A stretch of 64,000 bases of DNA from a virus (Duplodnaviria > Caudoviricetes): positions 110,627-174,626 of the IMG/VR virus record IMGVR_UViG_3300023048_000001; one strand, 5' to 3'. Shown one piece after another: positions 13,146 to 51,750 of the stretch; within the stretch, counting starts at the first letter, position 1, and the number at the start of each line of letters is the position of its first letter. The notes under the pieces are model-generated. The model did not search any database. It saw only the letters and a program-made list of their open reading frames with translations, and had not been told where the DNA came from. The translations under genes were made by a program, and so were the position numbers.

Positions 13146-13273
13146 TGGTCAACAACATGTAACTCACCGCTAGGGCGGATATATTCACCAGTAATATATG
13201 AAGGTGCGATCCCTTGAGACAGCGTTAGACGTTCTATATGAGGGTGCGATTCCTTCCTGTTGTTGTGAAGCCA
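13146..13273 (+). ncRNA. tRNA-like RNA with two T-arms
   Basis: Promoter TTGACA-N17-TAATAT at 13109; closing stem CAACAACA/TGTTGTTG; AAGG-TGCGATC-CCTT and GAGGG-TGCGATT-CCTTC. Confidence 0.55.
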
Positions 13274-13382
13274 AAGTTACGGTGAAAAGTGATGCATAAG
13301 CCAAGCGTGCGTGTGCAAACATCTGATCCATTTTTCTAGAGAATGAAATCTAGCCGTAGCGGTACTAAATTTAGAATAATAT

Positions 13383-13467
13383 GCCACTATGGCGGAATAG
13401 GTAGACGCAGCAGACTTAAAATCTGCCGCCCTTGGGCGTCCGGGTTCGATTCCCGGTGGTGGTACCA
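13383..13467 (+). tRNA. tRNA-Leu(TAA)
   Basis: Class II cloverleaf, loop CT-TAA-AA, CCA. Confidence 0.95.
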
Positions 13468-13484
13468 TATTATTCAAACAGTTT

Positions 13485-13612
13485 GATCCCTTAGCTCAGT
13501 GGTCTGATGGAAGAACAATCATTCTTAGTGTAATCAGAATGACCTTCGGAAGTCTTAGAGCGGAGAACTCTAAATCCTCGCGTCGTGGGTTCGAATCCCA
13601 CAGGGATCGCCA
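13485..13612 (+). tRNA. amber-suppressor-type tRNA (CTA) with 52-nt D-loop insertion
   Basis: Acceptor GATCCCT/AGGGATC-G-CCA, D-stem GCTC/GAGC separated by the insertion, loop CT-CTA-AA (13570-72), perfect T-arm. Confidence 0.8.
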
Positions 13613-13746
13613 AATTGATGTAGTTGCAGTGAGACACACTCCTGTAATTTAAGTAGGCAAGAATGCAGTGACTTAATACTTCTTTTTAGTGTGTATAACA
13701 CAAAAGCCCTTGACGATTGTTAAGGGCTTTCTTTTTGGAAAATATA

Positions 13747-13986
13747 ATGGAACTTCTAATCAACATCTTATTCGTCCTCCACTTCGGCTATCATGCCGCT
13801 GCTACCATTGGTGGAGTCTGGTCCCTTCTACATAGCCACAATGCTCACAAACGTAGCTGGTGGAAGATTGCCCTAGCTTTTGTATGGCTCGCTTTGAGTA
13901 TCTTGCTACTCGTTGTCAGCCATGATAAACTCCATCATCACGAGGACGAATGCAATCATGTTCAAACTATTCAAGAAAAAGCCTGA
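13747..13986 (+). CDS. small membrane protein
   Basis: Two TM segments, His-rich tail. Confidence 0.65.
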   Translation: MELLINILFVLHFGYHAAATIGGVWSLLHSHNAHKRSWWKIALAFVWLALSILLLVVSHDKLHHHEDECNHVQTIQEKA

Positions 13987-14365
13987 ACCTTTCATCCATC
14001 ACGATCTGTACAAAAACGCAATCAAAGCTATTGATGAGCTTTTCAAGGATATGCTCAATGATGATGCCAAGATGCGTAAGCTTTACCTATTCCATTATGG
14101 TGAAGCGCCAGCCACAGAACTTCATGCCACCTTCGCAGCTACCCTAGTCCATAACCTCTACAATAGGGTTAGCCTAGAGCTTCCAACTAAGTTTAAAGAG
14201 AAACACGATACCTTTACATCCACTCTGGAATTCTGTTATACTCCTTATCTTGAAACAGGTGCAGTACTGGTCGAACTCAAGATCGCCACACTGTTACTCT
14301 GGAAAGCAACAGAACATCATCATAAAGATTGGACTACCTATGAAGAAGCAAACCCACAAACCTAA
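13958..14365 (+). CDS. hypothetical protein
   Basis: 135 aa, overlapping operon arrangement. Confidence 0.65.
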   Translation: MFKLFKKKPEPFIHHDLYKNAIKAIDELFKDMLNDDAKMRKLYLFHYGEAPATELHATFAATLVHNLYNRVSLELPTKFKEKHDTFTSTLEFCYTPYLETGAVLVELKIATLLLWKATEHHHKDWTTYEEANPQT

Positions 14366-14483
14366 AATTAATAACCTTGTGGCGAAACATGCCATGAAGG
14401 TGAACAAGGCTGCGGTCATGCGTGATCGTAAGAATGACTATAACCGTACCGACAAACATAAGAAGGGAGAAGGTGATGAGTAA
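14340..14483 (+). CDS. small basic conserved phage protein
   Basis: NLVAKHAMKVNKAAVMRDRK, common in T4-like phages. Confidence 0.65.
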   Translation: MKKQTHKPKINNLVAKHAMKVNKAAVMRDRKNDYNRTDKHKKGEGDE

Positions 14484-14731
14484 TTTCTTTAATTGGTACT
14501 TCGTTATCGGTGGTACTCTCTCACTTGCTCTCGTAATTGCATATATGTTCAATCCGGGAATGATCGATCCTCGACTACTCATCGTGACCAACTCATTTGC
14601 TGTTGCTGGTCTCGGATTCCGTATAGCTTATGATCATTATCACCCTGAAGCGTCAAAGCATTGACATTTGTGATTTTAAAGCATATTATACTTGCACCTA
14701 ATATAAACATCGAAGGATGCAATAAAAACCA

Positions 14732-14956
14732 ATGAGTAATGCGAAAAATCTTCAGGCTCAAATTCAGAAGCTCAGTAAGGATTTGGTTGAAGCAGAACAT
14801 AACCTGAATCAGGCTGAATCCAATCCTGATACCGATGAAGCTACTATGCTGGAACTTGAAGATATCGTACAAGATGTTCAGGATGCCCTCTATGATGCTC
14901 AGGAAGAACTCGATAGACTCTATGCTCCCGATGCCTACTACGATGATAACTATTAA
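14732..14956 (+). CDS. acidic coiled-coil hypothetical protein
   Basis: 74 aa, own promoter, followed by terminator. Confidence 0.7.
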   Translation: MSNAKNLQAQIQKLSKDLVEAEHNLNQAESNPDTDEATMLELEDIVQDVQDALYDAQEELDRLYAPDAYYDDNY

Positions 14957-14982
14957 TCAATAACTCATCTAGTAATGAATAG

Positions 14983-15855: not shown

Positions 15856-15859
15856 TCCT

Positions 15860-27322: not shown

Positions 27323-28170
27323 CGGGCTGAGAATAGACCCTGACACGTTGATACTTTAGTTTGGATTATGGCATCTTGCGGATGCTTTCCCACTTTTCCA
27401 CTACAACCATCCTTCCGAATGCATCATAGTATATCAACATAGCAGCCTTATTTAAGTGGTGGCATTTCCACTGTCACCGTAACCTATTCGGCATGTCCTA
27501 TTCAGTCTGCCTTGCGAGCAGCAAAGGGTTCGACCCCATCCTTGCAATTCTTTACCAACATTCATCGGCCTTGCGAGCTTCCGAATGACTCTATTGTCTT
27601 ACGACTAGAGCATTATGCTATTTTCAGTTACGACCGAATCCGTCTTTGCGTTTTTTCAAGGTTGGATTTGAACCAACGTATGATCGTTTAAGAGACGATT
27701 GCTTATCCACTAAGCTACTAGTTATCCCACTAAGGTCGAGCGGATTCATAGGTCCATACCCTTTTGGGGTACAAAATTCTATCCGACCTCATCTGCTTCT
27801 CACCCGCTAAGGTTACACTCGCAGTTCGTTTCACGACTCTTTCAAGCCATTAACAATGTATAAACGCATTCGTCCGCTAAGACTCACACCCTCATACTAC
27901 CAATTCATCATCCACTGGTTCAACGTTAGACCGGCTAGAGGTTTCTATTCCTCTCATCACTCACCGATTGGCCTGTGATGGTTTTAACCGCATTGAATTC
28001 CAATATATCTCCGAAAGCTTCCGAAGCCAGAGCGTTCCACTCTGTGATATGTTGGCTTTTATAAACGAGTCCATTTTCATGGTGGGACGCTGGTAGGCGC
28101 ATTCCCGTTTGACACCTCACGGTATCTTATCTCTCCCTCATAACCCTTTCGAATTATGAGGTACTACACA
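27323..28170 (-). ncRNA. giant structured ncRNA, GOLLD-like
   Basis: ~850 nt without a credible ORF, own promoter, many GNRA-capped stems, embedded tRNA, located in a tRNA cluster; family call from memory of GOLLD architecture. Confidence 0.65.
27654..27724 (-). tRNA. embedded tRNA-Lys(CTT)-like domain with disrupted acceptor stem
   Basis: D-arm GCTT/AAGC, ATCGT-CTCTTAA-ACGAT, GTTGG-TTCAAAT-CCAAC; no good acceptor stem or CCA. Confidence 0.7.
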
Positions 28171-30549: not shown

Positions 30550-30870
30550 TCAACGACCATAATCTTCCTTCGGAATCATACCTTCCTTACCGGGAATCAA
30601 CTGAAACTTATCATCAATGGAATTGAAGTACTCGGAACGGTTGCAATTGAGGCAATTACGTTCCTTACGATAAACCGATCCCGGCTGATTGCCGCCCATG
30701 GTTCTCTCACCCGGAAGCGTTTCAGCGGTATTACCTTTGTATAGGAATCGACCAGTCATCCCACCATACCAATCATGGAATCCGATTGAACAAAGGAATC
30801 CCTGATCATGTGAGAAATGGACCAGAAGAAAGAAGCCAATGATGAGGACTAAAGCAATGATAATGGACAT
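30550..30870 (-). CDS. membrane-anchored Zn-binding hypothetical protein
   Basis: N-terminal TM, LCSIGFHDW...CLNC. Confidence 0.65.
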   Translation of the reverse strand: MSIIIALVLIIGFFLLVHFSHDQGFLCSIGFHDWYGGMTGRFLYKGNTAETLPGERTMGGNQPGSVYRKERNCLNCNRSEYFNSIDDKFQLIPGKEGMIPKEDYGR

Positions 30871-30877
30871 ATGGGTC

Positions 30878-31186
30878 TCAGTATTTGAGTGTGATTTCAG
30901 TGTAGGGATTAATATCTGTCAAAGCTTCGAAGATAAAGAATCTACCAAAGCTACATACTGTAATGATTTTGAAGTTGGGTTCATCGGAGTGATTACAGTA
31001 GGTAAACTCACTCAGGACGACACATAAAGGCTTCGGACCATTCTTAAGAGGAAAGACATGGTGATCTAACTCGTTGGTGTCTACAGGCAGAATGGGAACC
31101 GTAAAGGTCTGTCCTGCCTTTATATTTGCACGGGTGAAACATCCAAAACCATGAATGGATGAATCATCTATGAAGAAATCTTTCAT
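30878..31186 (-). CDS. SET-domain methyltransferase
   Basis: SSIHGFGCFT, YCNHSDEPN, EITLKY motifs. Confidence 0.85.
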   Translation of the reverse strand: MKDFFIDDSSIHGFGCFTRANIKAGQTFTVPILPVDTNELDHHVFPLKNGPKPLCVVLSEFTYCNHSDEPNFKIITVCSFGRFFIFEALTDINPYTEITLKY

Positions 31187-31476
31187 TTCGGCTTACGACC
31201 CATGAAGACAACATTTCGCGATCCACGATCACCAATTTCGATCAGACCAGCAATACCAAAACCCCAGCGGAACGGAAGAAGCCTTCCCGGAACCTTGGGA
31301 TTACAATGATGGTTGGTAAAAGTATAAAATATACCATGCAATTTCAAACATACACGCCAATTCTTCCACCTGTGCTTAGGAGCAATATGGATAGGATTAT
31401 GATAGGTACCATCCGGCTTCAGCGTGGTAATGCCGATACGAACCAGAGGACTAAGCAGTTTTTCTTTGGTGATCAT
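31183..31476 (-). CDS. hypothetical protein
   Basis: 97 aa, AGGAG RBS, own promoter. Confidence 0.65.
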   Translation of the reverse strand: MITKEKLLSPLVRIGITTLKPDGTYHNPIHIAPKHRWKNWRVCLKLHGIFYTFTNHHCNPKVPGRLLPFRWGFGIAGLIEIGDRGSRNVVFMGRKPK

Positions 31477-31530
31477 GGTTATCTCCTGTTGACTATAGTT
31501 TAGTGAATTTAATTCTTATCGTCAATAAGA

Positions 31531-31780
31531 AAAAAGCTCGCCAAAGCGAGCTTTTTATCTAATAAAAGAAGGATTAATTTTTAATAGCAACCATATCCTA
31601 GTAAAGTATCTTTGCTATCCGATAGAACAGTTTCTATTCCATCCTGCCCACTGTGATGTAGGGTGTGCTTTTTGGGAGGTCGTACAGTTTCGGAACGCAC
31701 TCCATTCCTCACCATTTTGCTATCTCTCGACAGTCTTTGAGTTGATTGGGTAGAAAAAAGGATTAACCTACCGGCTCAAC
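31531..31780 (-). ncRNA. putative ~250-nt small RNA (or 44-aa micro-ORF)
   Basis: Bounded by TTGACA-N17-TATTCT (31787..31815) and terminator AAAAAGCTCGC/GCGAGCTTTTT. Confidence 0.5.
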
Positions 31781-31818
31781 AATTATAGAATATAACTTTT
31801 AAAACTTTATGTCAATAC

Positions 31819-32124
31819 TTAGTAAGTAGGACCAGTGTGATGATTGAAAGTCAGCATTGCATCATGGCTCACCGGCCACAGCGGACAAGCACCTTCATGG
31901 CCGAAACCTGCACTACAAAACCAACCCTTGGGATGGTCATGCTTGCATGGACCATTCTTCTCTTCAGCACGATAGCTCTGAAGATCAGTAAACATCTGTT
32001 CCATAATCTTCCATGGCTCGTAGATGTCCTTCAGAAGTGGAAAGCCTTCAGCAGTCTTCTTTGCCCATTCAATGAACTGGGCAAGCTGTTCGTCAGTGTA
32101 ATTGAATTTAACTTCAGTCGTCAT
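31819..32124 (-). CDS. hypothetical protein
   Basis: 101 aa, C-terminal C/H cluster. Confidence 0.65.
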   Translation of the reverse strand: MTTEVKFNYTDEQLAQFIEWAKKTAEGFPLLKDIYEPWKIMEQMFTDLQSYRAEEKNGPCKHDHPKGWFCSAGFGHEGACPLWPVSHDAMLTFNHHTGPTY

Positions 32125-32370
32125 AACTTTGCTCGGTGTTGGTGAGATTGAATTCTACCGGATTTAAAAGTTAAATCCAAGTACTCATGACATAGAGTGG
32201 AAATGTTCCAATAAGAAGCAAGACAATACTGATCACAAAGTCAATTACCTCAAAGCCATATCCTTTCTTCCAACGTAAGATGGTTATAAACCCACCATAG
32301 AAGCCAAATCCAAACAATAGACCAAGCAAGATAGGTATAAAAATGTAACTCATAATATTTCCTAATAAGG

Positions 32371-32444: not shown

Positions 32445-32452
32445 AGATTTTT

Positions 32453-32935
32453 TTAATCTTTACGTGTCAATAAAGCACGTTTGTACCAAGCTGATTTTGC
32501 AAATTCCCAAAAGCCATCATAGGGTTTACCCTGTTCACCCATAAACCATTTGGTGAATTCCTTCTCTTCGTCAATAGAAGATGAAACGTGATTATGGTCG
32601 GGTAAGCCGAATAGATTATCTGAAATCCAAGTATCAGCCTTACCCTTGGTATCAACACGCCATACACCCATTGTGGATACATCAGCAGGACGCCAGATGG
32701 TTCCACATTTTAAACAAGTATGACTACGATGCGGTGGATTGGTCCACTCAGCCTCATATGCCTCCATAGCCTTTCTAAGAGACTCTAGGTCTTCAACTGA
32801 CTCAGTGCCCATAGGAGCATCGAACTTATCAGACCAATGGTTTGGTCTATCTAGATGCTGAAACCCGCATACGGGACAGTGTAGAACCATTTTGATGGGC
32901 GTTTGATCCGTCATATCAATCTCTTTTATTTTCAT
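32453..32935 (-). CDS. Zn-ribbon hypothetical protein
   Basis: LHCPVCGFQHLD...NPPHRSHTCLKCG; 21-bp duplication of RBS/start at 32911..32952. Confidence 0.75.
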   Translation of the reverse strand: MKIKEIDMTDQTPIKMVLHCPVCGFQHLDRPNHWSDKFDAPMGTESVEDLESLRKAMEAYEAEWTNPPHRSHTCLKCGTIWRPADVSTMGVWRVDTKGKADTWISDNLFGLPDHNHVSSSIDEEKEFTKWFMGEQGKPYDGFWEFAKSAWYKRALLTRKD

Positions 32936-32970
32936 ATCAATCTCTTTTATTTGTATATTAATAATTAACT

Positions 32971-33525
32971 CTATGATACTAGTTTATGAGCATAATCAAT
33001 AATGTTATTTAAGTATTGGTCTTCTATAGGACGTACTATATCACCAAACGCAGCGATTAAATTGTCTTTGAATTTGGGATTATAGTCCATACCACCACGC
33101 ATGTAATTATACAAGTATTCAAAGTCACCAGCTACTACACCCTTACTAAGACAAATATCACAGATATTCGATACGTGTGGAAACTTAGCTGGATCATTTA
33201 CAACAAACACTGCGCCATCAAAGTCTGATCCATATCCAGTTGAGACTACGTGCATATCAATCTTATCGTAATAGCTTAGATCGGCTGCACAGCCATTACC
33301 TTGGAAGTATGAACCTTCTCTTTCAGCGTCATGCCACCACACAGGAAAGCGTGCAACACAAATATCGCAGGTTCCTACCTTAAGAAGTCGCAGATTCCTT
33401 AACGTATTTCTACGAGCCCTCCATGAGTTCTTTAATAGCCAATTCCGGGTCAGCTTTAATGATCTTGGCCCTTCAGGCTCATACGGTATTTCAAACCAAT
33501 CAGATAATGAACTAATAGTGGTCAT
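32971..33525 (-). CDS. hypothetical protein
   Basis: 184 aa, CDIC twice, GYGSDFDG. Confidence 0.7.
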   Translation of the reverse strand: MTTISSLSDWFEIPYEPEGPRSLKLTRNWLLKNSWRARRNTLRNLRLLKVGTCDICVARFPVWWHDAEREGSYFQGNGCAADLSYYDKIDMHVVSTGYGSDFDGAVFVVNDPAKFPHVSNICDICLSKGVVAGDFEYLYNYMRGGMDYNPKFKDNLIAAFGDIVRPIEDQYLNNIIDYAHKLVS

Positions 33526-33769
33526 GGGTTAATCCTTTATAAAACTTCATTGCATCAGAAAATTCTGTATCAGACAATGGATTATCCATGGTGTAAACTT
33601 TGTTCTGATAAGCTTCCAGATTGACTAGCTGAATCTCAAATGTATTAGTATCTAAATACCAGTCAATTAGTTCTTTGATCTGTTCATCCGTAACATGATC
33701 ACCGATGTCATCCACCCTCCACTCACCATGAGCATATGATTTATGTTGTCGATACAGAATAGCTCTCAT
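33512..33769 (-). CDS. hypothetical protein
   Basis: N-terminus paralogous to 33790..34314. Confidence 0.65.
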   Translation of the reverse strand: MRAILYRQHKSYAHGEWRVDDIGDHVTDEQIKELIDWYLDTNTFEIQLVNLEAYQNKVYTMDNPLSDTEFSDAMKFYKGLTHDHY

Positions 33770-33789
33770 CCCTAATCCTTATGTAAGTA

Positions 33790-34314
33790 TTACCATTTAA
33801 AATCTTCGCCATAAATGCTCTTCATATGGGTCGTAATAATTGAGCTAACTGTTGATTGTGTCCTTGGTCTAACTTTACCACTTTTAACCGCGTCAGGTTT
33901 TACACCCTCAGAATCTTCATGGTTTAAAACACAGTTGGGATTACCACAAGGGCATGCGACGTATTCATATTCTTCACGGGAAAACAGTCTATTTCCAGAA
34001 GGTGCATAGCCTTCGCTGTCAGCATAACCAGCTTCATCACCATAATCATTCTTTTCAGATGGCTTTGAATAGAAACTCTCAACCACTCCTAAGCTGACTT
34101 CTGATAGCATGCTATCAATAGTATACGTATTATCATTATGAATATCATAATCAATCAACTGAGTTTCATTCCCAGCCTTTACAGATTCTTCAAGAAGATA
34201 ACGAACCTGTGTCTGGTCAGCATCTTCACTGATAACTCTGATTAACCATCCACTATTTGGATTGCTACGGTTAATATTTTTATTTAAATTCTTTCGGTAT
34301 AAAATTGCTTTCAT
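33790..34314 (-). CDS. hypothetical protein
   Basis: 174 aa, CPCGNPNC motif. Confidence 0.7.
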   Translation of the reverse strand: MKAILYRKNLNKNINRSNPNSGWLIRVISEDADQTQVRYLLEESVKAGNETQLIDYDIHNDNTYTIDSMLSEVSLGVVESFYSKPSEKNDYGDEAGYADSEGYAPSGNRLFSREEYEYVACPCGNPNCVLNHEDSEGVKPDAVKSGKVRPRTQSTVSSIITTHMKSIYGEDFKW

Positions 34315-34341
34315 TTATTATTCTCTTATATGATGTTAAAT

Positions 34342-34623
34342 CTATTGGCTTGATGGATAGCGTGGAGTCATATCAATAACCCTACGGCGCAGTCCAATGG
34401 GAATGTCAGCACCGTTAATATCATTCCAAGTCTCGCAACATGGGCACTGAAACGTAATATAATCTTCACTGCTTTGATCTATAAACGTGTTGTGCGTGTG
34501 GAATAGATCAGCACTAGAAACCTCTAGGAGAGCGCCACAGCCATGATTGCCATTACCCCTACCATCGCAGGCGTATTGCTTCGACCATGAACCACCCTCA
34601 GTACCTTTTTTAATGATCTTCAT
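34342..34623 (-). CDS. Zn-ribbon protein, tandem paralog
   Basis: GCGALLEVS...FxC shared with 34627..34935. Confidence 0.75.
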   Translation of the reverse strand: MKIIKKGTEGGSWSKQYACDGRGNGNHGCGALLEVSSADLFHTHNTFIDQSSEDYITFQCPCCETWNDINGADIPIGLRRRVIDMTPRYPSSQ

Positions 34624-34626
34624 GAT

Positions 34627-34935
34627 TTAGTTTCTTTTAGTAATTTCTGTGATCGGTAGAGACATGATCTTATCCCATAGCATGGATGGTATTACAAGTT
34701 TACTTATTTCATTAAGCTCTTGACATGATAGACATCTAAACACAGCCATATTAGCATTATAAAATGTTATACCACCAAATTCACCAACGTAGTAATGCCT
34801 ACTATCCATTTTTACATGAAACATGTCTGGCACCGATACTTCAAGCAGCGCTCCACATCCATCTTTATTTAAACCACGACATTTGGCTCGCATATTCCAA
34901 ATATCATTGTTTCTTCCTTCTTTAATGATTTTCAT
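34627..34935 (-). CDS. Zn-ribbon protein, tandem paralog
   Basis: GCGALLEVS...FRCLSC. Confidence 0.75.
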   Translation of the reverse strand: MKIIKEGRNNDIWNMRAKCRGLNKDGCGALLEVSVPDMFHVKMDSRHYYVGEFGGITFYNANMAVFRCLSCQELNEISKLVIPSMLWDKIMSLPITEITKRN

Positions 34936-35133
34936 AGATTCTCACTTGACGTAAACACAATATGCGTCACGAGTGCTGCTACGTGTCTTAAGCCAATCGA
35001 TCTGCGCAGTACAAGCTTCCTTGGTTGTGAAACCGGGAATCATCTGACTCGCCACCGCTGAATCATAACCGTTGTAATTGTTCAAAAGAATGATCAATAC
35101 CCAATGCATAAGAAATCCTCTGAGAAGATTGGA

Positions 35134-35835
35134 TTATAACTCTTGAGTGGTTATAAAGCTACCATCGACTGCACGCTTCTTACCTTGGACATTGCGTCCT
35201 GCATAGGTTGAGGTCTGTGAATGACAGTTAGGACAAAGGAAGCAAAGGTTATCCAATCGGTTATCATTACCAACACCATTGATATGCTCAAGATGTAACA
35301 CAATTGGCTGACCATTCCATGTATCTGTGATAGTACATTGTGGACCGGAACATTTGTAAGGAATGAGGTTGAGTGACAGGATTCTGCTTTTTACTGTAGG
35401 ACGAAGTGCTGTAGAGTTTTCACAAAATATATCGTCGTATGACCTCGTACCACTGTTATTTTGTGCAGCAGCTTTTCTTGCATCAAAATGTGATACATCA
35501 GTCTTGTAATGTTTAATCAACTTTCTAACTGTTTGAATATTATTACCAGAGAACCTAATATCCATATGCTTCATAAGATCAGTCCAACATATAGACTCAT
35601 TTGCAAGCTGTTGGATAGTTTCTTTTGAATATCTCTTATGTAACGGGTTTCCCATACAATGATGGGAAATATTAATTTCATGACTTGCAATGAAATTTAT
35701 TAAGTATTTAAGTGCTTGAGCATTCTTTATGTTGATACCAAGCCTGCGTAGTATCTCTTGTTTTGATGTGCATTCTGATATAAGCAAAGTGAGTTCACTT
35801 ACTGGCTTCATTCTAATTTTATCTATTTCTGTCAT
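35134..35835 (-). CDS. free-standing HNH homing endonuclease
   Basis: LHLEHINGVGNDNRLDNLCFLCPNCHSQT; adjacent to tRNA genes. Confidence 0.9.
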   Translation of the reverse strand: MTEIDKIRMKPVSELTLLISECTSKQEILRRLGINIKNAQALKYLINFIASHEINISHHCMGNPLHKRYSKETIQQLANESICWTDLMKHMDIRFSGNNIQTVRKLIKHYKTDVSHFDARKAAAQNNSGTRSYDDIFCENSTALRPTVKSRILSLNLIPYKCSGPQCTITDTWNGQPIVLHLEHINGVGNDNRLDNLCFLCPNCHSQTSTYAGRNVQGKKRAVDGSFITTQEL

Positions 35836-35917
35836 ACAATATCTCAGTTAATGAGATATTTATCAAACGTAGAGCAGTGTGTCACGACGCAGTGTATGGT
35901 CATAAACATTAGATATT

Positions 35918-35942
35918 AAAAAACCCGCCGAAGCGGGTTTTT
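35918..35942 (-). terminator. intrinsic terminator after tRNA-Pro pair
   Basis: AAAAACCCGC-TTCG-GCGGGTTTTT. Confidence 0.85.
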
Positions 35943-35947
35943 ATAAC

Positions 35948-36024
35948 TGGTCCGAGTTGCAGGATTCGAACCTGCGACCTTCGCGTCCCAAACGCGACGC
36001 ACTGCCAGACTGTGCAAAACTCGG
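35948..36024 (-). tRNA. tRNA-Pro(TGG)
   Basis: Canonical, loop TT-TGG-GA, CCA. Confidence 0.95.
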
Positions 36025-36033
36025 ATTTTAAAT

Positions 36034-36110
36034 TGGTCTCCACGGTTCGACTCGAACGAACAACCTCAAGCTTCCAAAGCTCGCCATCTACCTATTGATA
36101 TTACGCGGAG
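36034..36110 (-). tRNA. tRNA-Pro(TGG), A37 variant
   Basis: Cloverleaf, loop TT-TGG-AA, CCA. Confidence 0.88.
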
Positions 36111-36124
36111 AGATTATGTTACGT

Positions 36125-36153
36125 ATTATACATCTATTTATAACTGTTGTCAA
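36125..36153 (-). promoter_or_regulatory. sigma70 promoter with nested TATAAATA
   Basis: TTGACA-N17-TATAAT; TATAAATA at 36135..36142 within the spacer. Confidence 0.75.
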
Positions 36154-36404
36154 GCATTTAATATTCTCTACCATTTTCCACTCTATTGGGTGGTGAGCAA
36201 TATTGTAATTATTTAGGACGCCATACAAGAGTGATGCACTTATTACCTTGTTCTTTAAGAACTTGCATTTGGTTCATCGCATCTTGCAATGATTCACCAC
36301 TCCAAACTTGAGCATTTCCCCAGCCATCGTATCCATCATTACGTTCGATGCCAGTATATTTCCAAACAAGAATTGTGTATTCTGTGCCCATGTTATCTCT
36401 TAAA

Positions 36405-36482
36405 TGGTGGCCAGAGGTGGATTCGACCCACCATCTACCGGTTAAAATACCGGTGATTTTGAACCGCTTAAACTATCCGGCC
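36405..36482 (-). tRNA. Lys-like tRNA with 8-nt anticodon loop
   Basis: GGCCGGA/TCTGGCC-A-CCA; ACCGG-TATTTTAA-CCGGT; T-loop GTCGAAT. Confidence 0.7.
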
Positions 36483-37779
36483 ATTAACTTGTGAAACTAT
36501 TTATGTATATTAAACTAGTTGTGAAATTAAAGCAAGGGATTCTTTCGATCAATTACTTGAAGTTCAATTTCATCAAACTTTGAGCCCCATCCACTAAAGA
36601 TGGCATCTGGTTCTTCACCAGTTAGCTCAATATAAGCCTTACGAATGGCTTGACGCATTGATAAATCTGCACCGGGAGGAACTTCAACACCATCTACGGA
36701 GCCGATCTTGCATTCCCATACGAAACGTGTACTATCTAATACTGTATCAGTCATACATTATCCAGTTTAATATTCTTTGAAGCTTCAAATAATTCATCTT
36801 CGGTATTATAAAAATTACCTGTTTTAATTAGAAGTGCTTGTAGCTCACGTTCATTGTACGTTTCGGCAACGAATCCACCATAATAGAAGATGGTTCCGAT
36901 GAGGTGTGCAATTTTCTTATGATCAGGCTGGGTGATCATGGAAGCTAGTGAGCGAATGTATGTTGAGGTATGAGGGCCAAGTGTTGTCCCAAGATCGATA
37001 CCATCTTTCTTGAGTGCATCGGCCAATTCTGTTGCGATAATTGTAGCTGATAATCCTTCGGCGCTCATGCTTAATCTTCCTTTAAAAATTCTGGTGCAGT
37101 TTTCATAGATCATTTAACCTTTTGACTTCAGTAATTGCGTTGTTCCAGCCTTCACGATAACCTCTACGTTCTGCCATCCATTCAAGACTGATTGGTGCAC
37201 AAACTTCAAGACCGATAGGCTTTGGTAGTTCGATGATTTCGTAATTAGCAGCCATGTAATCGAGTGTATCTCTTACCAAGGTGATAAGAGCATCACGATC
37301 AGCTTTCGATCCTTGAATTTTTGCTAGAGTGAGGCTTTCACTCATACTCATTAGTTGAAGTTTACTCATAATTATCCATTAATAGCAAGATTGTTTCCTA
37401 CCTATGAAGCATACCAAGTGTATACCCTTCATACGTTCATTATAACATTGAAGTTATGAGTAGCGGAAACACTCTCTACAGTAGACCTTCTCAGGTCGTC
37501 GCTGAGGCTCGTTACCGTTCCGACTCCCTCAACCTATCTAACGCATTCTACTTTATGCGCTTCGGTTTACTTTAATATGTGATACCAAGCTTTTCTATTT
37601 GATCTTTACCATGAACTGTAAATTCTTTTCCATTATGCATGGTAATAATATACTCATGATAAACAGCAGTTGATCTTAATTCAATACTAGAAATGCTATT
37701 AGGATTAATCCAAATCTGCATATCTTTACCGCCATAATTTGCTAGAAATCTTGATGTCAATCTAATAAGCTCAGTCATG

Positions 37780-38157
37780 TTACGAAATCGTCTTAATGAA
37801 ATTGGTGCAGTCTTCGACCGTATCAAAGCCGAGAGTTACATATGCTTGATTCTTGTGTGTACGATCGATGGAGAATGGAATATGCTTGGCCTGATGTTCT
37901 CGCCAGAATCGCTTGAGGACTGCGGTTTCAGTTGGGCAACCATCATCTTCAACGCATACCTTATCAGATGCTTCGAATTCTTCAATTTGATTATGTAGAG
38001 CCTGACAAGCTTCGAATCCTGTTGCGAATGTATTGCCATGGTTATTGTCAATGGCATTGGCAATCAGAATCATTTTATGTGCATGATCCTCATAGCCATT
38101 ACCTGAAAAGTATTGGGCATGGTCACGCAGATATTTTTCAGCTTCATCAAGTTTCAT
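37780..38157 (-). CDS. hypothetical protein with shared 27-aa module
   Basis: DKVCVEDDGCPTETAVLKRFWREHQAK also in 38932..39207. Confidence 0.75.
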   Translation of the reverse strand: MKLDEAEKYLRDHAQYFSGNGYEDHAHKMILIANAIDNNHGNTFATGFEACQALHNQIEEFEASDKVCVEDDGCPTETAVLKRFWREHQAKHIPFSIDRTHKNQAYVTLGFDTVEDCTNFIKTIS

Positions 38158-38565
38158 ATTAGCTCCACAATGGTTTCAAGGATTTTAACTATTATTTGAA
38201 ACGCTCAGGCATCACTAGCACAGTCATAACGAATACCTAGTGATGCAAGCGTGCACTCATCAGGAACAGTGAGTTCATCGTAATGAAAACCATCACCATC
38301 ACAACCGAGCGAATCATAATCAAACTCACCGTTATGATATGCCGCTTCCTTCTTCTTAATCCACTCTGCATTGAAAGTGTATTGTGCGCTGGATGAGCCA
38401 TCACCATTGTTGCTGATTAGAACGAAAAGCTTCTTTGCCATTGTATTATCCAGTTGTTGATTAAATGTAAATCATGTTGGTAATGACTTCCAACTCTACG
38501 GGGATTGATCCCGTTACCCGTCCATTTTCATGAAGCGCGGAGATAGAGGCACGACAGTCCGTGCA

Positions 38566-38922
38566 TTAATGATTTACTTTATAAACTTCACGATCATTTA
38601 AAGCTTCTTCACGATCAGCTTTGGTATGTTGCTTTCCCCAAGCATTTAAGCCACCGAAGTGAGCATTATAATCTTGAGAACTCTTCTTTAATTTACGTAA
38701 GGAAGTCATTCTAACTAAACGCTTGGTATCTCTATCGACATAGCCTTTATAATCATTAGCTATATCAAGATCATTTTCATGATAAATTCTTACATTCTTT
38801 CCAGAATCTACAACCTGAACATGATGGTCATCAATGATTCGCCAAACTCGTCCAAACATACCTCCATCACGAACACCATCTTTGTTCAATGGGAAGGTGA
38901 TATCATTACGTTTAAATTTCAT
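38566..38922 (-). CDS. hypothetical protein
   Basis: 118 aa. Confidence 0.65.
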   Translation of the reverse strand: MKFKRNDITFPLNKDGVRDGGMFGRVWRIIDDHHVQVVDSGKNVRIYHENDLDIANDYKGYVDRDTKRLVRMTSLRKLKKSSQDYNAHFGGLNAWGKQHTKADREEALNDREVYKVNH

Positions 38923-41863: not shown

Positions 41864-43000
41864 TTATTCGGTTTCTGTTAGTTCGGGATCGTCGCCAATT
41901 CCGAACTCCTTATAATGCTTGATCATCCATGTCTTGTAGTCGTTCTCCTTCCCAAGGTAAAGGTTCATCGCAAGGCTGAAATACAGACGGTCTAGCTCTT
42001 TCTGTCCAGCAATCGCATAATCCTTTCTCTCTAGATCACTATTTGAATTATAGAACCCAACAACATACTTGTCAATATTGCGATAAATTGCCTTGACCTT
42101 GAGTTCCATTTCGTCAATGAGTTTGAGCATATATTCATCATACGAGAAGTTAGCACGGGCATCATCGTGGCCTTCGTTCACTACCACAATGAAGCGCTTC
42201 TTAGGTGAGTTAATATCATCCTTAAGATTGTGTAGTGAACAATACCAGTCAGTCTTGTGCTTCGTTAGAACACCCTCAACACCAATGATGTAGCCCTCTA
42301 CTCCCGTCTTTGCTGGAATTGAATCAACAAATGCTGGAACATCATCAACCTTATAGCTCTTTACCAAATAATCAAGAACAAGTGGATCAAATGAGACCAT
42401 TGTCATTACGACTTCATTATATGCCAGTACTTTACCATCATCACGATCACGAACATGGAGAACAGTCAGCTTATCTTCCTGATAAGGAAGAACAATACGG
42501 TGTACCGGCGAAGTCCATTCCAAAGAAACAGAGAATTTAGCCTGTTCCATGTATTCTAAATATTTTAGCAATCTATCATTTTCGCCATTGAACAAAAATT
42601 CCATGGCAGCATTTGCCTGCTCTGAAGCTAGCGATGTTTTGCTCTTCAGATATGTGTTTCCATGGATCATGTAAGTGGTCATAATGCTACCATCCATCTT
42701 ATCCATGACAATATCTGCCTTGGAGAAGTCGATGTCCATAACCAAAGGATTTTCCTTAAAATTAAAGAATTTTCGGGGTGGCAGGGAAGCCAGACGCTTC
42801 ATACGTCCATCTTCCATTTCAAACATGATACCACGAGCCTCAAGAGCCGAAGGCTTCAGGAAGTCGCTATAGGAAGCTAGACGATAGTTGAACACACGGA
42901 AGGTAACACCTTCCATCTGATGTTCTACGATATAAAATGGTGAGTCAGGAGCATGAATAAGCTCCATCAACTCATCATATAGAGTTGATTCATAATGCAT
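41864..43000 (-). CDS. rnlA: RNA ligase 1 (T4 Rnl1 family)
   Basis: FNYRLASYSDF, EARGIMFE, KFFN, motif I KMDGS, LKSK, EGY, KTDWY. Confidence 0.92.
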   Translation of the reverse strand: MHYESTLYDELMELIHAPDSPFYIVEHQMEGVTFRVFNYRLASYSDFLKPSALEARGIMFEMEDGRMKRLASLPPRKFFNFKENPLVMDIDFSKADIVMDKMDGSIMTTYMIHGNTYLKSKTSLASEQANAAMEFLFNGENDRLLKYLEYMEQAKFSVSLEWTSPVHRIVLPYQEDKLTVLHVRDRDDGKVLAYNEVVMTMVSFDPLVLDYLVKSYKVDDVPAFVDSIPAKTGVEGYIIGVEGVLTKHKTDWYCSLHNLKDDINSPKKRFIVVVNEGHDDARANFSYDEYMLKLIDEMELKVKAIYRNIDKYVVGFYNSNSDLERKDYAIAGQKELDRLYFSLAMNLYLGKENDYKTWMIKHYKEFGIGDDPELTETE

Positions 43001-44591: not shown

Positions 44592-44738
44592 TGGTGGAGC
44601 ATTAACGATTCGAACGTCATCAGCCCTACCACCTCTGATACGTCATGGACAGTAGTACTCCTGACACCATCATCTTTATCAGTCAGTTTCAAGGGCGGCG
44701 GTTTAATGTCGCTGGGTTTTCCAATTCCCTATTACTCC
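44592..44738 (-). ncRNA. expanded tRNA-like RNA (147 nt)
   Basis: GGAGTA/TGCTCC-A-CCA, D-arm GGG-AATTGGAAAA-CCC, branched variable domain closed by GCCCT/AGGGC, T-arm TTCGAAT. Confidence 0.7.
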
Positions 44739-44746
44739 AAAACTTT

Positions 44747-44871
44747 GCTTTCGGAAGGATTCGAACCTTCTTGTCCATTCCTCAGGATAAGCTCAGCCTT
44801 AACAATTATGTTCCACGGAATCGAACCGTGAGCCTTATCTTTTCGGGTCGGTCCCCTAGAGTTTCGAAAGC
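44747..44871 (-). ncRNA. tRNA-like RNA with two T-arms
   Basis: GCTTTCG/CGAAAGC; inner CACGG-TTCGATT-CCGTG inside GATAAG/CTTATC; outer GAAGG-TTCGAAT-CCTTC. Confidence 0.7.
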
Positions 44872-44877
44872 ATAAAT

Positions 44878-44996
44878 TGGCAGATGTGGATGGATTCGAA
44901 CCACCGACAGCTATGTCATATTGTCCATTCCTATACGGGAGGACTCAACATTATGCACCTCTCCACGAGGCCACTCTTCCACTGAGTTACACATCT
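44878..44996 (-). ncRNA. expanded tRNA-like RNA (119 nt)
   Basis: AGATGTG/CACATCT-G-CCA, canonical D and T arms, 5-nt anticodon loop, ~48-nt variable hairpin. Confidence 0.75.
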
Positions 44997-49433: not shown

Positions 49434-49700
49434 AAAAAAACCCGACCTTATATCCGTAGATACAGTGGATCGGGCCGTGTTATTGGTTGTAACCTTTGGT
49501 TCCCTGATGAGAGGTTCCGAGCGGGTAGGTTACGATAGCGCTTACACGCATTTGGTTGTGACTTTACTAACTTTCCCTGCGCATGATATCGAGGAAAGAC
49601 CCGCCGTCACGAAAATGTATTATACTCAGCTTCGGGATGGTCTGTGTAGGCTGGACCGAGCTTCAACGGTATAAATTGTTTATGATGGTTGAACATCGTG
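49434..49700 (-). ncRNA. putative structured RNA ending in terminator
   Basis: GCGGGT/ACCCGC, CTTTCC/GGAAAG, GTAACCT/AGGTTAC; CCCGA...TCGGG-T7. Confidence 0.45.
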
Positions 49701-49705
49701 GGGTT

Positions 49706-49778
49706 TGGAAGCGGGGTTTGGAATCGAACCATTTTAGTTCCGTAGCTTATGAGGCTAGGTCACACCTTGCTCCCCGCA
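49706..49778 (-). ncRNA. initiator-like (CAT) tRNA with degenerate D-arm
   Basis: GCGGGG/CCCCGC, TAGC-CTCATAA-GCTA, TGG-TTCGATT-CCA, CCA end. Confidence 0.6.
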
Positions 49779-49784
49779 ATAATT

Positions 49785-49836
49785 TGGTGTCCGGCTACAT
49801 TTCTGTATAACGTGGCATTCCGTGCCACTACCAGAC
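49785..49836 (-). ncRNA. 52-nt mini tRNA-like RNA
   Basis: GTCTGGT/GCCGGAC-A-CCA enclosing GTGGCA/TGCCAC and TACA-GAAA-TGTA. Confidence 0.55.
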
Positions 49837-50037
49837 ATAATCAGCCCAAGAGATTCCTTTCAGACATCCTTGGGATGTAAGGGCTACATATACTCCTTAC
49901 AACTGAAACGGATTATGACGTTTCTATTAATTATTTGTCTATCACTTTATGGTCCCCAAAATCCCGCAACTCTAAGGATGCAGCTATCCGGTTTCTCAGT
50001 TTTAGTAATTAATGTTACGTACCGATCATTTCAAAAC

Positions 50038-50131
50038 TGGCGGAAGATTGAGGTCACGCTCCCCAAGCGAGATTTGACCTCGCTCCCATCGATTTCAAGT
50101 CGAGTCCAGCACCTCGGCCGGTTAATCTTCC
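50038..50131 (-). tRNA. tRNA-Ser(TGA), 8/4 acceptor/T architecture
   Basis: GGAAGATT/AATCTTCC-G-CCA, loop CT-TGA-AA, long variable arm, 4-bp T-stem with loop AGCGTGA. Confidence 0.8.
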
Positions 50132-50257
50132 ATTTTGTAGATTTATTTATTGCTGTTGCAATAATTTGTCTACAAATAATAACATATTATTTACGATTGT
50201 CAAGCTCTTTATTCAACATTTTCAAGGTTTAATCAATAAACTTGATATTCCTAGACT

Positions 50258-51325
50258 TCATATCTTCCCAACGATCCCTGTCTGATCAGCTTCACCGATC
50301 CACTCAGCCGTGGTATAAACATCATTATCTTCATCACTACGCGAATAGCATGTAAAGCGGTATTTACCGGGTTTGATTTTTGCAGTTTCAAGCTTCTTTT
50401 CGTAGTAATTTTTGTTTCTTTCAGTACATAGTTTTGAAATCATGATGTCATAATATTTCTTGTCTAGCATGGTTACCCACCAAAGATCAGTGCAGAACCA
50501 ACCAGCTTTTTCAAAGCCTTCTTCAGGCTCTACTTCATTGCCGTCATCATAAATTTCACCAATACGAATCTGTGCAGTTTCTTTATTATAGAACCATGTC
50601 GGAGAGCTATTACCTACGCTCTGGTGGAAGATATGCTGACGTGCAAACACATCTGAACGCTGGCGTTGTCCCTTCAGAAAATTAATGGACTCACCATCAG
50701 CACCATCAAGGATACCAGCACTAGTCAGTTCTGAGAAACGATCTGGCCAATCAGAGAACACGACTTCACCAGTGGGGAAATCTACTTCAAGACTGAACTT
50801 AAGGTTGTTCTCACAAGGTTTAGCACCTATTAGGTGAACTTCATTCCCCTTGAAACGAAAGCCAAGCTTAACCGCGCAATCTTCACACCTCTGCTCGTAG
50901 GTGCCTCCAACTGTGAACCATTCTTCACCAGCCAAGGCCTTAGCGAAAAGCTCATTGTCATTAATGATGAGGAAATCATGGATCATGGTATCTATGCTGT
51001 AAATGAAATCTTTTTCATGAACATCAACGTCCTGAAAATCATACTTGCGTGGCTTATCAATATTAGCAAATTGCTTAAGGATATAAACAATTGATAGATG
51101 ATCAGTATCACCAGTCACAATAATGGAACGATCTTTAATGATAGTTTTAATGTGCGTCTTAAGTAACCTCACACCTTTCATAATTTCTTGATGTGGAGTC
51201 AATTTTTCCTTTATCAACTCAAGAATCTCTTCTTTCTCAGGACTATCCAATTCACTAGCTTTTTCTTTAAGAGTTTCAGTTAGCTTATTGAAAGCCTCTT
51301 CAAGCTGGTTTTTAATATCGGGCAT
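50258..51325 (-). CDS. hypothetical protein
   Basis: 355 aa; CEDC, SVGNSSP, FCTDLWW motifs; RBS and promoter. Confidence 0.8.
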   Translation of the reverse strand: MPDIKNQLEEAFNKLTETLKEKASELDSPEKEEILELIKEKLTPHQEIMKGVRLLKTHIKTIIKDRSIIVTGDTDHLSIVYILKQFANIDKPRKYDFQDVDVHEKDFIYSIDTMIHDFLIINDNELFAKALAGEEWFTVGGTYEQRCEDCAVKLGFRFKGNEVHLIGAKPCENNLKFSLEVDFPTGEVVFSDWPDRFSELTSAGILDGADGESINFLKGQRQRSDVFARQHIFHQSVGNSSPTWFYNKETAQIRIGEIYDDGNEVEPEEGFEKAGWFCTDLWWVTMLDKKYYDIMISKLCTERNKNYYEKKLETAKIKPGKYRFTCYSRSDEDNDVYTTAEWIGEADQTGIVGKI

Positions 51326-51629
51326 GATAATCCTTGCGTTAACGGTATAATGTTGTTAAAAGAACTTCTTTTTGTCAAATCGGGTTTCATGGATCATAAG
51401 AAAAATTGGACCAATAATAGCTACAATTATACTCTGAATCAGAAGTTTCTTTTTGAAGAGTTCTGGTTTAAACAAGTAGAAACTTATTTCTACTAAAGCC
51501 TCTCCTACTCCTATGATAAAGAATAAAAGAGATGGTAGAAAAATGAGTAAGAGTGGATTGGTATGCATATCAATTCTCTATAATGAAGGTTACGATTGTA
51601 CACCTTGGGAATTGATAATTCAATGATGT

Positions 51630-51750
51630 ATGTAATTTGGGATTTGAACCCGATAACTCTATATGGACTTATGTAGCGCCGGTCTTACAACGGAGTCGAA
51701 CCGTCTTCTGCCTCGGTAGAGTAAGCTTACACCACAGCTTTCGATTACAT
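51630..51750 (-). ncRNA. tRNA-like RNA with two T-arms
   Basis: ATGTAAT/ATTACAT, D-arm AAGCT/AGCTT, ACTCTA/TAGAGT enclosing GACGG-TTCGACT-CCGTT, outer GGG-TTCAAAT-CCC. Confidence 0.7.

What the first reader, a model, noticed from the sequence alone, without database searches (positions are those of the whole stretch)
13146..51750. Family of double-T-arm RNAs (13146+, 44747-, 51630-)
Three loci of ~120-128 nt with unrelated sequences each have a closing acceptor-like stem and two T-loop hairpins. In 44747 and 51630 the second T-arm lies inside a stem that replaces the anticodon arm (GATAAG/CTTATC; ACTCTA/TAGAGT), suggesting a two-elbow molecule. Known: paired T-loops in T-box Stem I, RNase P and the L1 stalk bind tRNA elbows, and bacterial Y RNAs carry a tRNA-like domain. 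These RNAs may mimic two tRNAs or bind tRNA.
Basis: partly seen in the sequence, partly recalled or inferred. Interest (0 to 1): 0.75.

Follow-up and report, generated by a model that had tools for sequence, protein, structure and literature searches.

The report
Phage RNA2 homologue plus two look-alikes
Only one of the three "double T-arm" RNAs (51630-51750) is a conserved gene: it is this jumbo phage's copy of phage T5 "RNA2", a tRNA-shaped RNA of unknown function whose anticodon loop is replaced by a 48-base module with a second T-arm, while the other two are young, lineage-specific tRNA-derived elements.

Summary
The window is the tRNA-rich early region of an XacN1-like jumbo myophage. All three loci have the hairpins described, and strict T-arms are not chance: 18 lie in the last 65 kb of the contig and none in the first 110 kb.

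The three loci are not one family.

Locus 3 (51630-51750, minus strand) is a homologue of phage T5 rna2 ("RNA2"), which GenBank lists as an RNA gene and which no Rfam family matches. Ten homologues from jumbo, T5-like and Acinetobacter T4-like phages share one design. A tRNA cloverleaf has a 5-bp anticodon stem that closes a 47-49-nt insert with a true T-arm. Compensatory changes support the anticodon stem, both T-arms and, where it is clear, the acceptor. It cannot decode: position 37 is always a pyrimidine, U33 is lost in ZZ1, and the "anticodon" reads CCA or CCG.

Locus 2 is missing from the nearest relative as a clean indel, has no homologue, and looks like a recent chimeric copy of its neighbour.

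Locus 1 is the 5' leader of a tRNA operon. Its two "T-arms" are a 40-nt tandem duplication that orthologues lack.

No Y RNA or Ro60 signal was found. This scan had already found RNA2 repeatedly in T5-like phages. Function remains unknown.

The parts
51630..51750 (-). Locus 3: RNA2-family tRNA-shaped RNA, 121 nt. Acceptor 51744-51750 / 51630-51636. D-arm within 51722-51743. Anticodon-type stem 51717-51721 / 51657-51661.
   Evidence: Homologues: L007, G001 (L146), Acinetobacter phages and T5 rna2. Covariation. Covariance model score 76.5 bits.
51668..51715 (-). Conserved 48-nt insert of locus 3. It replaces the anticodon loop and holds T-arm1 (51689-51705), two invariant GG dinucleotides and a GAGG motif. 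It is followed by the conserved UCCAUA (51662-51667).
   Evidence: Insert length is 47-49 nt in nine homologues. Insert identity window vs G001 is 42/49, against 45/74 for the tRNA body. The T-arm1 stem has 3 of 5 pairs with both sides changed.
51637..51653 (-). T-arm2 of locus 3 (the tRNA-position T-arm).
   Evidence: three of 5 pairs are compensatory.
44747..44871 (-). Locus 2: lineage-specific tRNA-like gene, 125 nt. T-arm1 44814-44830, T-arm2 44754-44770.
   Evidence: Clean indel of about 135 nt relative to relative L007. No homologue in 50,697 phage records, IMG/VR patterns or G001. Shares AACTC...GAG and an exact 12-mer AGGAATGGACAA with its neighbour 44882-44996.
13146..13270 (+). Locus 1: structured 5' leader of a tRNA operon. 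Closing stem 13150-13157 / 13258-13265. Duplicated hairpins 13200-13216 and 13240-13256.
   Evidence: Sequence read. The 40-nt tandem duplication and the orthologues L141/L142, which lack T-arm1 and have a non-T-loop last hairpin, are. G001 has no leader.
13109..13137 (+). Sigma-70-type promoter TTGACA-N17-TAATAT that drives locus 1, tRNA-Leu(UAA) and the interrupted tRNA(CUA).
   Evidence: Conserved in L141/L142.
13703..13730 (+). Intrinsic terminator that closes the locus 1 operon.
   Evidence: 12-bp stem plus T run. Conserved in L141/L142.

Best explanation
The three loci are three unrelated tRNA-derived genes in the tRNA-rich early region of an XacN1-like jumbo phage, not one family.

Locus 3 is the phage's copy of the RNA2 family (phage T5 rna2). 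It has a tRNA body with acceptor, D-arm, a 5-bp anticodon-type stem and a T-arm. In place of the anticodon loop it carries a conserved 48-nt three-way junction holding a second true T-arm.

Shown: homology, the conserved architecture, covariation, and the lack of a usable anticodon loop.

Inferred: it is transcribed with the neighbouring tRNAs and cut out by RNase P and 3' trimming, because it keeps the acceptor/T-arm/D-arm chassis. It does not decode. Its conserved module is the working part. That module comprises T-arm1, two invariant GG dinucleotides that could give a second elbow, and the GAGG and UCC(R)(Y)A motifs. The most likely role is a tRNA mimic that occupies a tRNA-reading factor, either a host tRNA-targeting defence nuclease or a tRNA-processing or modifying enzyme. 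I put this last step at about 0.3.

Locus 2 is a recent chimeric paralogue of the adjacent tRNA-like gene with an extra T-arm-bearing insert. Locus 1 is an operon leader whose second hairpin arose by a 40-nt duplication. Neither has evidence of a conserved double-T-arm function.
For: Setting: the phage DNA polymerase is 50% identical to that of XacN1. The window holds GOLLD and many tRNAs.

Locus 3 homology chain:
- Window to Acinetobacter phage AB1I1M-1, E 8e-10.
- The AB1I1M-1 copy hits 420 phage records, including T5 misc_RNA rna2.
- Also present in L007 and in the complete 350-kb phage G001.
- Covariance model scores: 76.5 bits for the window and 67 bits for IMG/VR locus L116.

Locus 3 covariation:
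- Among the three jumbo-phage copies, 9 of 21 cloverleaf pairs are compensatory.
- Across nine sequences, 18 of 22 pairs are compensatory, and the anticodon stem has no non-pair.
- T-arm1 has 3 of 5 pairs with both sides changed.

Locus 3 is not a decoder: the loop remnant reads C/G | (U/A)CC(A/G)(U/C)A. No Rfam tRNA hit appears even at E<=10. G001 also has a normal tRNA-Trp.

Locus 2: indel relative to L007, and no homologues.

Locus 1: promoter and terminator; duplication and non-conserved hairpins.
Against:
- ARAGORN in intron mode reads locus 3 as tRNA-Trp(CCA) plus a 48-nt intron. The spliced form passes its default test, so splicing is not excluded.
- Per PMC10802454, T5 variants that lack this stretch of the tRNA region (T5Mos, deletion 30661-38625, which covers rna2 at 32962-33086) still grow on E. 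coli. Any function is therefore conditional.
- For the Acinetobacter copies the acceptor strand was picked by best pairing and is uncertain.
- Loci 1 and 2 could still be functional in ways that single sequences cannot show.
Confidence: 0.7

Rival explanations
1. One reading: all three loci form one functional family of two-elbow RNAs that mimic two tRNAs or bind tRNA elbows, in the manner of T-box Stem I, RNase P or the L1 stalk.
For: Each locus has a closing stem and two T-arm-like hairpins. Acceptor-closed RNAs with two T-arms recur in viral contigs: 38 of 97 sites against 4-6 expected, of which 28 are 96-196 nt long.
Against: The loci share no sequence or model similarity. Locus 2 is absent in the nearest relative. 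Locus 1's hairpins are a recent duplication with a non-T-loop orthologue. The IMG/VR set is heterogeneous: nested whole tRNAs, intron-like minihelices and class II tRNAs with T-loop-like anticodon loops. The known elbow binders use interdigitated pentaloops, not two full T-arms (my own knowledge).
Confidence: 0.08
2. Locus 3 is a tRNA-Trp(CCA) gene interrupted at position 32/33 by a 48-nt intron of the "enigmatic" large-phage kind. The intron is removed by cellular tRNA-processing nucleases, and the exons are rejoined by one of the phage RNA ligases.
For: ARAGORN intron mode calls tRNA-Trp plus a 48-49-nt intron in the window, L007, G001 and AB1I1M-1. The spliced form passes default ARAGORN. 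Rnl1-like and Rnl2-like ligases are encoded at 41864-43000 and 55504-56469. Lak phage tRNAs carry short introns, one of them tRNA-shaped (PMC6784885). tRNA-shaped inserts and nested tRNAs occur in the IMG/VR sample.
Against: The insert is present in all ten homologues, and no intron-less allele was seen. The would-be anticodon loop has a pyrimidine at position 37 in every sequence, lacks U33 in ZZ1, and reads CCG rather than CCA in T5, K44, phage 133 and L116. The discriminator is A, no CCA is encoded, and G001 has a separate canonical tRNA-Trp. The insert has no acceptor-like helix or NCCA for RNase P or RNase Z to use. T5 rna2 is annotated at the full 125 nt.
Confidence: 0.1
3. All three loci are decaying or rearranged tRNA pseudogenes with no function, the debris of rapid tRNA-array turnover.
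For: Between close relatives this region shows gene-sized indels and insertions. Examples are locus 2, a 46-nt D-loop insertion in tRNA(CUA), and an extra module in L007. Loci 1 and 2 have no conserved homologues.
Against: For locus 3 this is excluded. Helices are kept by compensatory changes across phage families, and the insert is more conserved than the body. Locus 1 keeps its promoter, closing stem and operon position in relatives.
Confidence: 0.1
4. The loci are bacterial Y-RNA-like (YrlA-type) RNAs that work with a Ro60/Rsr protein.
For: The inner modules have the permuted order stem / T-arm / small hairpin with GG, which recalls the tRNA-like domain of YrlA (my own knowledge, applied).
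Against: No Rfam family of any kind hit the loci at E<=10. No TROVE domain was found in the 175 kb held, although the positive controls were detected. In these RNAs the ends lie in the acceptor stem, not in a Ro-binding stem.
Confidence: 0.02

Closest known systems
Phage T5 rna2 / RNA2 (misc_RNA, AY692264.1 32962-33086, 125 nt)
   Same: Homologous to locus 3. Both have an acceptor-closed tRNA body, a 5-bp anticodon-type stem, a 48-nt insert with T-arm1, the GAGG and UCC(R)(Y)A motifs, and a position inside a phage tRNA cluster.
   Different: The window copy sits in an XacN1-like jumbo myophage. Its tRNA body is strongly diverged (61% identity even within the jumbo clade). The loop remnant is UCCAUA rather than UCCGCA, and the loop after T-arm1 is 1-3 nt longer. 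Loci 1 and 2 are not members.
Phage T4 stable RNA C (species 1, rnaC, 139 nt)
   Same: A non-decoding stable RNA in a phage tRNA cluster, with a canonical T-arm abutting a terminal stem. Its function is unknown.
   Different: It has a single T-arm, long hairpins instead of a cloverleaf, and no sequence similarity seen by eye.
"Enigmatic" short introns of Lak megaphage tRNAs (Devoto et al. 2019, PMC6784885)
   Same: Short inserts in anticodon loops of large-phage tRNA genes, some of them tRNA-shaped. Comparable nested tRNAs and minihelix inserts were seen in IMG/VR loci L039, L090, L042 and L095.
   Different: In Lak phages some alleles lack the intron and the exons give a normal anticodon loop. 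For locus 3 no insert-less allele exists and the loop remnant is not a usable anticodon loop.
Canonical tRNA (Rfam RF00005)
   Same: Locus 3 has acceptor, D-arm with GG, anticodon-type stem and T-arm at tRNA spacing. Locus 2 has the acceptor plus T-arm minihelix.
   Different: None of the three loci reaches the tRNA model, even at E<=10 in small searches. None has a 7-nt anticodon loop.
YrlA / bacterial Y RNAs with Ro60 (Rsr)
   Same: A tRNA-like T-arm plus D-like module used for mimicry (my own knowledge).
   Different: No model hit and no TROVE protein was found. The RNA ends lie in the acceptor stem rather than in a Ro-binding stem.

Membership tests
T5 RNA2 (rna2) family - locus 3 | Sequence or model homology to T5 rna2 | tested here: met
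   blastn chain: window to AB1I1M-1 at E 8e-10, then AB1I1M-1 to T5 rna2 at E 4e-7. Alignment of 9 sequences. Model R1 scores 76.5 bits on the window.
T5 RNA2 (rna2) family - locus 3 | A 5-bp anticodon-type stem closing a 47-49-nt insert that carries a T-arm | tested here: met
   Insert is 47-49 nt in 9 sequences. The anticodon stem has 0 non-pairs, with all 5 pairs compensatory. T-arm1 has 3 compensatory pairs.
T5 RNA2 (rna2) family - locus 3 | tRNA-type acceptor stem abutting a second T-arm; gene lies in a phage tRNA cluster | tested here: met
   Directly downstream of tRNA-Ser(CGA) in the window. Within or next to tRNA genes in T5, AB1I1M-1 and phage 133.
T5 RNA2 (rna2) family - locus 3 | Accumulates as a stable, unspliced RNA of about 120 nt | not testable with these tools
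Only the T5 annotation length of 125 nt is available.
T5 RNA2 (rna2) family - loci 1 and 2 | Homology to the RNA2 module | tested here: not met
   Model R1 matches only the bare T-arm of locus 2 (18 bits, E 0.21) and nothing in locus 1. No blastn matches.
Canonical tRNA | Reaches the Rfam RF00005 gathering score; 7-nt anticodon loop with U33 and a purine at 37 | tested here: not met
   No RF00005 hit for any of the three loci. The loop remnant of locus 3 has a pyrimidine at 37.
Intron-containing phage tRNA (Lak type) | Exons rejoin to a canonical anticodon loop; intron-less alleles exist | tested here: not met
   No allele without the insert among the ten homologues examined. U33 is lost in ZZ1, position 37 is a pyrimidine in all, and the triplet is CCA or CCG.
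YrlA / Y RNA with Ro60 | Match to a Y RNA model and a Ro60/TROVE partner gene | tested here: not met
   No Rfam hit at E<=10. No PF05731 match in the 175 kb held, which is about half the genome, so the protein part is only half tested.
Interdigitated double T-loop elbow binders (T-box Stem I, RNase P, L1 stalk) | Two T-loop pentamers interlocked to form a flat platform that stacks on a tRNA elbow | not testable with these tools
   This needs a 3D structure or probing. The loci have two complete 5-bp/7-nt T-arms rather than internal-loop pentamers.

The most novel reading that the evidence does not exclude
In the RNA2 family, which includes locus 3, the inner T-arm docks on one of the two invariant GG dinucleotides of the insert. 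This would form a second tRNA-type elbow at the tip of the anticodon arm. The resulting two-elbow tRNA mimic would be used by phages from at least three families to jam or retarget a factor that reads tRNA elbows or anticodon arms, for example a tRNA-cleaving defence nuclease or RNase P.
Probability: 0.25. Interest if true: 0.8.

Novelty: new member of a known kind. Interest (0 to 1): 0.45.

Why it matters
RNA2 is listed in the phage T5 GenBank record, but I found no description of its function, and no Rfam family matches it.

This work shows that a homologue sits in an XacN1-like jumbo phage, and that the design is held by compensatory evolution across T5-like, Acinetobacter T4-like and jumbo phages. 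That marks it as a widespread, selected phage RNA. It probably acts in the tRNA-centred conflict between phages and hosts. This phage also carries two RNA ligases and a Thg1-like enzyme.

The result also warns against grouping tRNA-like oddities by shape. In this region, short structured insertions and duplications create look-alikes quickly.

Tried and rejected
- Protein-anchored scans of IMG/VR with the Rnl1-like and 355-aa neighbours: no relatives.
- Exact T-arm pattern scans for loci 2 and 3 in IMG/VR: nothing. A loose RNA2 pattern gave chance hits apart from G001.
- The metagenome scan found other double-T-arm RNAs but no locus 3 kin.
- Minimum-free-energy z-scores are not significant.
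- In constrained folds, the stems enclosing T-arm1 are no better than in shuffled sequences, so thermodynamics cannot confirm nesting.
- Multi-copy mobile-element idea: each insert is single-copy in the 175-kb contig and close relatives.
- Inner module as an acceptor/T-arm minihelix ending in NCCA, as in tRNA-shaped introns: the seven bases after T-arm1 have no complementary strand upstream in loci 2 or 3 (read).
- Locus 3 as the phage's only tRNA-Trp: rejected, because G001 has a normal tRNA-Trp as well.
- XacN1 has many unannotated tRNA-like RNAs but no RNA2 homologue by BLAST.
- Literature searches for "two T-arms" and for T5 stable RNAs found no description of RNA2's structure or role.

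Full report
CONTEXT

The window is the last 64 kb of a 174.6-kb viral contig. CheckV rates the contig as about 50% complete. The same phage appears as a 346-kb contig in the protein collection.

The phage is a myovirus, with a tail sheath and a family B DNA polymerase. Its polymerase is 50% identical to that of Xanthomonas jumbo phage XacN1. XacN1 carries its tRNA genes in a 66-kb terminal repeat (PMC5852040).

The window holds 14 ARAGORN tRNAs, a GOLLD RNA with a nested tRNA, and two RNA ligases, one Rnl1-like and one Rnl2-like. The contig also encodes a Thg1-like enzyme. All strict T-arm hairpins of the contig (18) lie in its last 64.6 kb. None lies in the first 110 kb.

THE OBSERVATION

The sequences at the three coordinates have the features described.

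- Loci 2 and 3 each have a 7-bp terminal stem that directly abuts a canonical T-arm, plus a second canonical T-arm 41-49 nt upstream.
- Locus 1 has an 8-bp terminal stem and two hairpins with UGCGAUY loops. One extra base lies between the last hairpin and the stem.

None of the three loci is called by ARAGORN or by the Rfam tRNA model. No Rfam family reaches E<=10 on any of them. Free-energy z-scores are unremarkable. The tRNA-like folds are 4-6.6 kcal/mol above the minimum free energy, so the case has to rest on comparison with related sequences.

LOCUS 3

A close relative (L007) keeps locus 3 at 95% identity while its flanks are unrelated. One T-stem pair changes from G:C to A:U.

A complete 350-kb jumbo phage (G001; loci L146, L147 and L151) has a much more diverged copy. 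The tRNA body is 45/74 identical but the 48-49-nt insert is 42/49 identical. Nine of 21 cloverleaf pairs carry compensatory changes.

blastn against 50,697 phage records then found the element in Acinetobacter phage AB1I1M-1. With that copy as query, 420 records matched. Most are T5-like Salmonella and Escherichia phages. The Acinetobacter T4-like phages ZZ1, Acj9 and 133 also matched. In phage T5 the match is the annotated misc_RNA "rna2".

Across nine sequences:
- The 5-bp anticodon-type stem has no non-pair, and all five pairs covary.
- T-arm1 has three covarying pairs, which RNAalifold confirms.
- T-arm2 has three covarying pairs.
- The insert is always 47-49 nt.

The acceptor is clear in the jumbo and T5 groups, where it covaries. 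In the Acinetobacter copies I chose the 5' strand by best pairing, so I do not rely on it there.

A covariance model of the module scores 76.5 bits on the window. It picked out one further member (L116, 67 bits) among the IMG/VR loci.

IS LOCUS 3 AN INTERRUPTED tRNA-Trp?

ARAGORN in intron mode reads it as tRNA-Trp(CCA) plus a 48-nt intron at position 32/33. The spliced form passes its default test.

The family alignment argues against a decoder:
- The loop remnant is C/G followed by (U/A)CC(A/G)(U/C)A.
- Position 37 is a pyrimidine in every copy.
- ZZ1 has A at position 33.
- T5, K44, phage 133 and L116 read CCG where the others read CCA.

In addition, no copy lacks the insert. G001 has a separate canonical tRNA-Trp. 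T5 rna2 is annotated at the full 125 nt.

I therefore read the insert as the conserved working part carried on a tRNA chassis, not as an intron. I leave about 0.1 for splicing.

The insert contains two invariant GG dinucleotides, a GAGG motif, and, in the non-jumbo copies, a GAA/UUC mini-hairpin with a GG loop right after T-arm1. A second T-loop/GG elbow is therefore plausible but unproven.

According to PMC10802454, T5 variants missing this part of the tRNA region still grow on E. coli. T5Mos carries a deletion of 30661-38625, which covers rna2 at 32962-33086. Any role is therefore conditional.

LOCUS 2

In L007 the two flanking tRNA-like genes are about 91-93% identical to the window's copies and lie 7 nt apart. 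Locus 2 is a clean indel of about 135 nt with only a TTT microhomology at the junction.

It has no homologue in the phage collection, in IMG/VR patterns or in G001.

It shares AACTC...GAG (a D-stem position) and an exact 12-mer, AGGAATGGACAA, with its upstream neighbour 44882-44996. My estimate of the chance of such a 12-mer match is about 1e-3. The L007 orthologue of that neighbour has diverged at this motif. Locus 2 therefore looks like a recent partial copy.

Folding does not prefer that stem.

LOCUS 1

A consensus promoter (13109-13137) and a strong terminator (13703-13730) bracket one operon. The operon runs locus 1, then tRNA-Leu(UAA), then a tRNA(CUA).

Relatives L141 and L142 keep the promoter, the closing stem (with G.U and U-A replacements) and the rest of the operon. 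Their leader interior differs. There is no first hairpin, and the last hairpin has the loop AUCGUGC, which is not a T-loop.

In the window the two hairpins are a 40-nt tandem repeat of the form TATATGA(A/G)GGTGCGAT(C/T)CCTT. G001 has no leader at all.

The "double T-arm" of locus 1 is therefore a lineage-specific duplication in a leader RNA.

THE WIDER PICTURE

The window has at least six more uncalled tRNA-like genes with 28-60-nt insertions. XacN1 also has many unannotated ones.

The results were:
- Of 97 distinct sites, 38 have a 7-bp stem that abuts T-arm2 and encloses T-arm1, against 4-6 expected.
- Of those, 28 are 96-196 nt long.
- These are heterogeneous: whole tRNAs nested in anticodon loops, minihelix-type inserts, class II tRNAs whose anticodon loop looks like a T-loop, and one RNA2 member.

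Two T-arms inside a closing stem is thus a common outcome in phage tRNA arrays and does not define a family.

COMPARISON WITH EARLIER NOTES

After reaching T5 rna2 independently, I looked up this scan's notes. Several earlier follow-ups on T5-like phages describe the same RNA2 family in the same terms. This window adds a jumbo-phage member.

The earlier notes on tRNA-shaped introns led me to the Lak phage paper (PMC6784885) and to the intron test above.

VERDICT

Locus 3 is a new member of a known but uncharacterised RNA family. Loci 1 and 2 are young tRNA-derived elements. No Y RNA/Ro60 link was found.

Noticed in passing
window 27324-27791 (-): GOLLD RNA (Rfam 201.8 bits, full-length model match) with a tRNA nested at 27653-27724.
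   Followed up: no
window 13485-13612 (+): tRNA with anticodon loop CUCUAAA (CUA, amber-suppressor type) carrying a roughly 46-nt structured insertion in its D-loop. Relatives L141/L142 have the same gene without the insertion, as a normal 76-nt tRNA.
   Followed up: partly
window 44595-44739 (-); XacN1 AP018399.1 45297-45441 (L144): A tRNA-like RNA of about 145 nt ending in CCA. Its D-arm region, TAGGGAATTGGAAAAC(C/T)C, is shared with an unannotated element of cultured phage XacN1, so it is conserved across the jumbo clade.
   Followed up: partly
window 44882-44996 (-); L008 6037-6076: A tRNA-like gene (Rfam tRNA 38.9 bits, with a 58-nt insert). In a more distant relative its orthologue is reduced to a bare acceptor/T-arm minihelix of about 40 nt that keeps the same acceptor and T-arm sequence.
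   Followed up: partly
window 64-212 (-), 51863-51968 (-), about 52060-52135 (-), 59314-59436 (-): Further uncalled tRNA-like genes with a 7-bp acceptor and T-arm, mostly with encoded CCA, and large insertions. ARAGORN intron mode reads 61-212 as Leu(AAG)+59 nt and 59310-59436 as Thr(AGU)+28 nt.
   Followed up: partly
window 41864-43000 (-), 55504-56469 (-); contig G000:82301-82690 (-): A tRNA-repair-type enzyme set: a T4 Rnl1-like RNA ligase, a second RNA ligase (PF09414) and a Thg1-like protein (103 bits). No CCA-adding enzyme was found in the 175 kb held.
   Followed up: partly
L007 about 3590-3675: The closest relative has an extra 87-nt stem-closed module with a T-arm (CATGG-TTCGATT-CCATG) between a tRNA-like gene and tRNA-Arg(CCG). 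The window lacks it. Its start resembles the inner part of locus 2.
   Followed up: partly
IMG/VR loci L039 (about 4994-5144), L090 (about 4971-5120), L042 (about 3836-3990): Complete tRNAs (Ile-GAU, Phe-GAA, Met-CAU) nested inside the anticodon loop of an outer tRNA-like gene. L095 carries a minihelix-type insert ending in UCCA in a tRNA-Thr(UGU).
   Followed up: partly
XacN1 AP018399.1 36560-39053 (L144): A 2.5-kb ORF-free stretch with three consensus promoters, a tmRNA-like gene (a tag frame ending in ...ALAA) and several unannotated T-arm-bearing elements. XacN1 tRNAs for Lys, Cys, Asn, Gly and Thr are 86-91 nt long, with long variable arms.
   Followed up: no
G001 (IMGVR_UViG_3300048854_000081) 204985-205113 and 203969-204063: Expanded His-like (129 nt) and Cys-like (95 nt) genes sit beside or in addition to canonical tRNA-His and tRNA-Cys, the same pairing seen for the RNA2 copy and tRNA-Trp.
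   Followed up: no
T5 AY692264.1 30397-33086 (L241): T5 annotates four further small RNAs in its tRNA region: RNAIV, RNA2H, RNA1 and RNAI. RNA1 (144 nt) has a class II-type D-arm and a T-arm, so it is another tRNA-chassis RNA.
   Followed up: no
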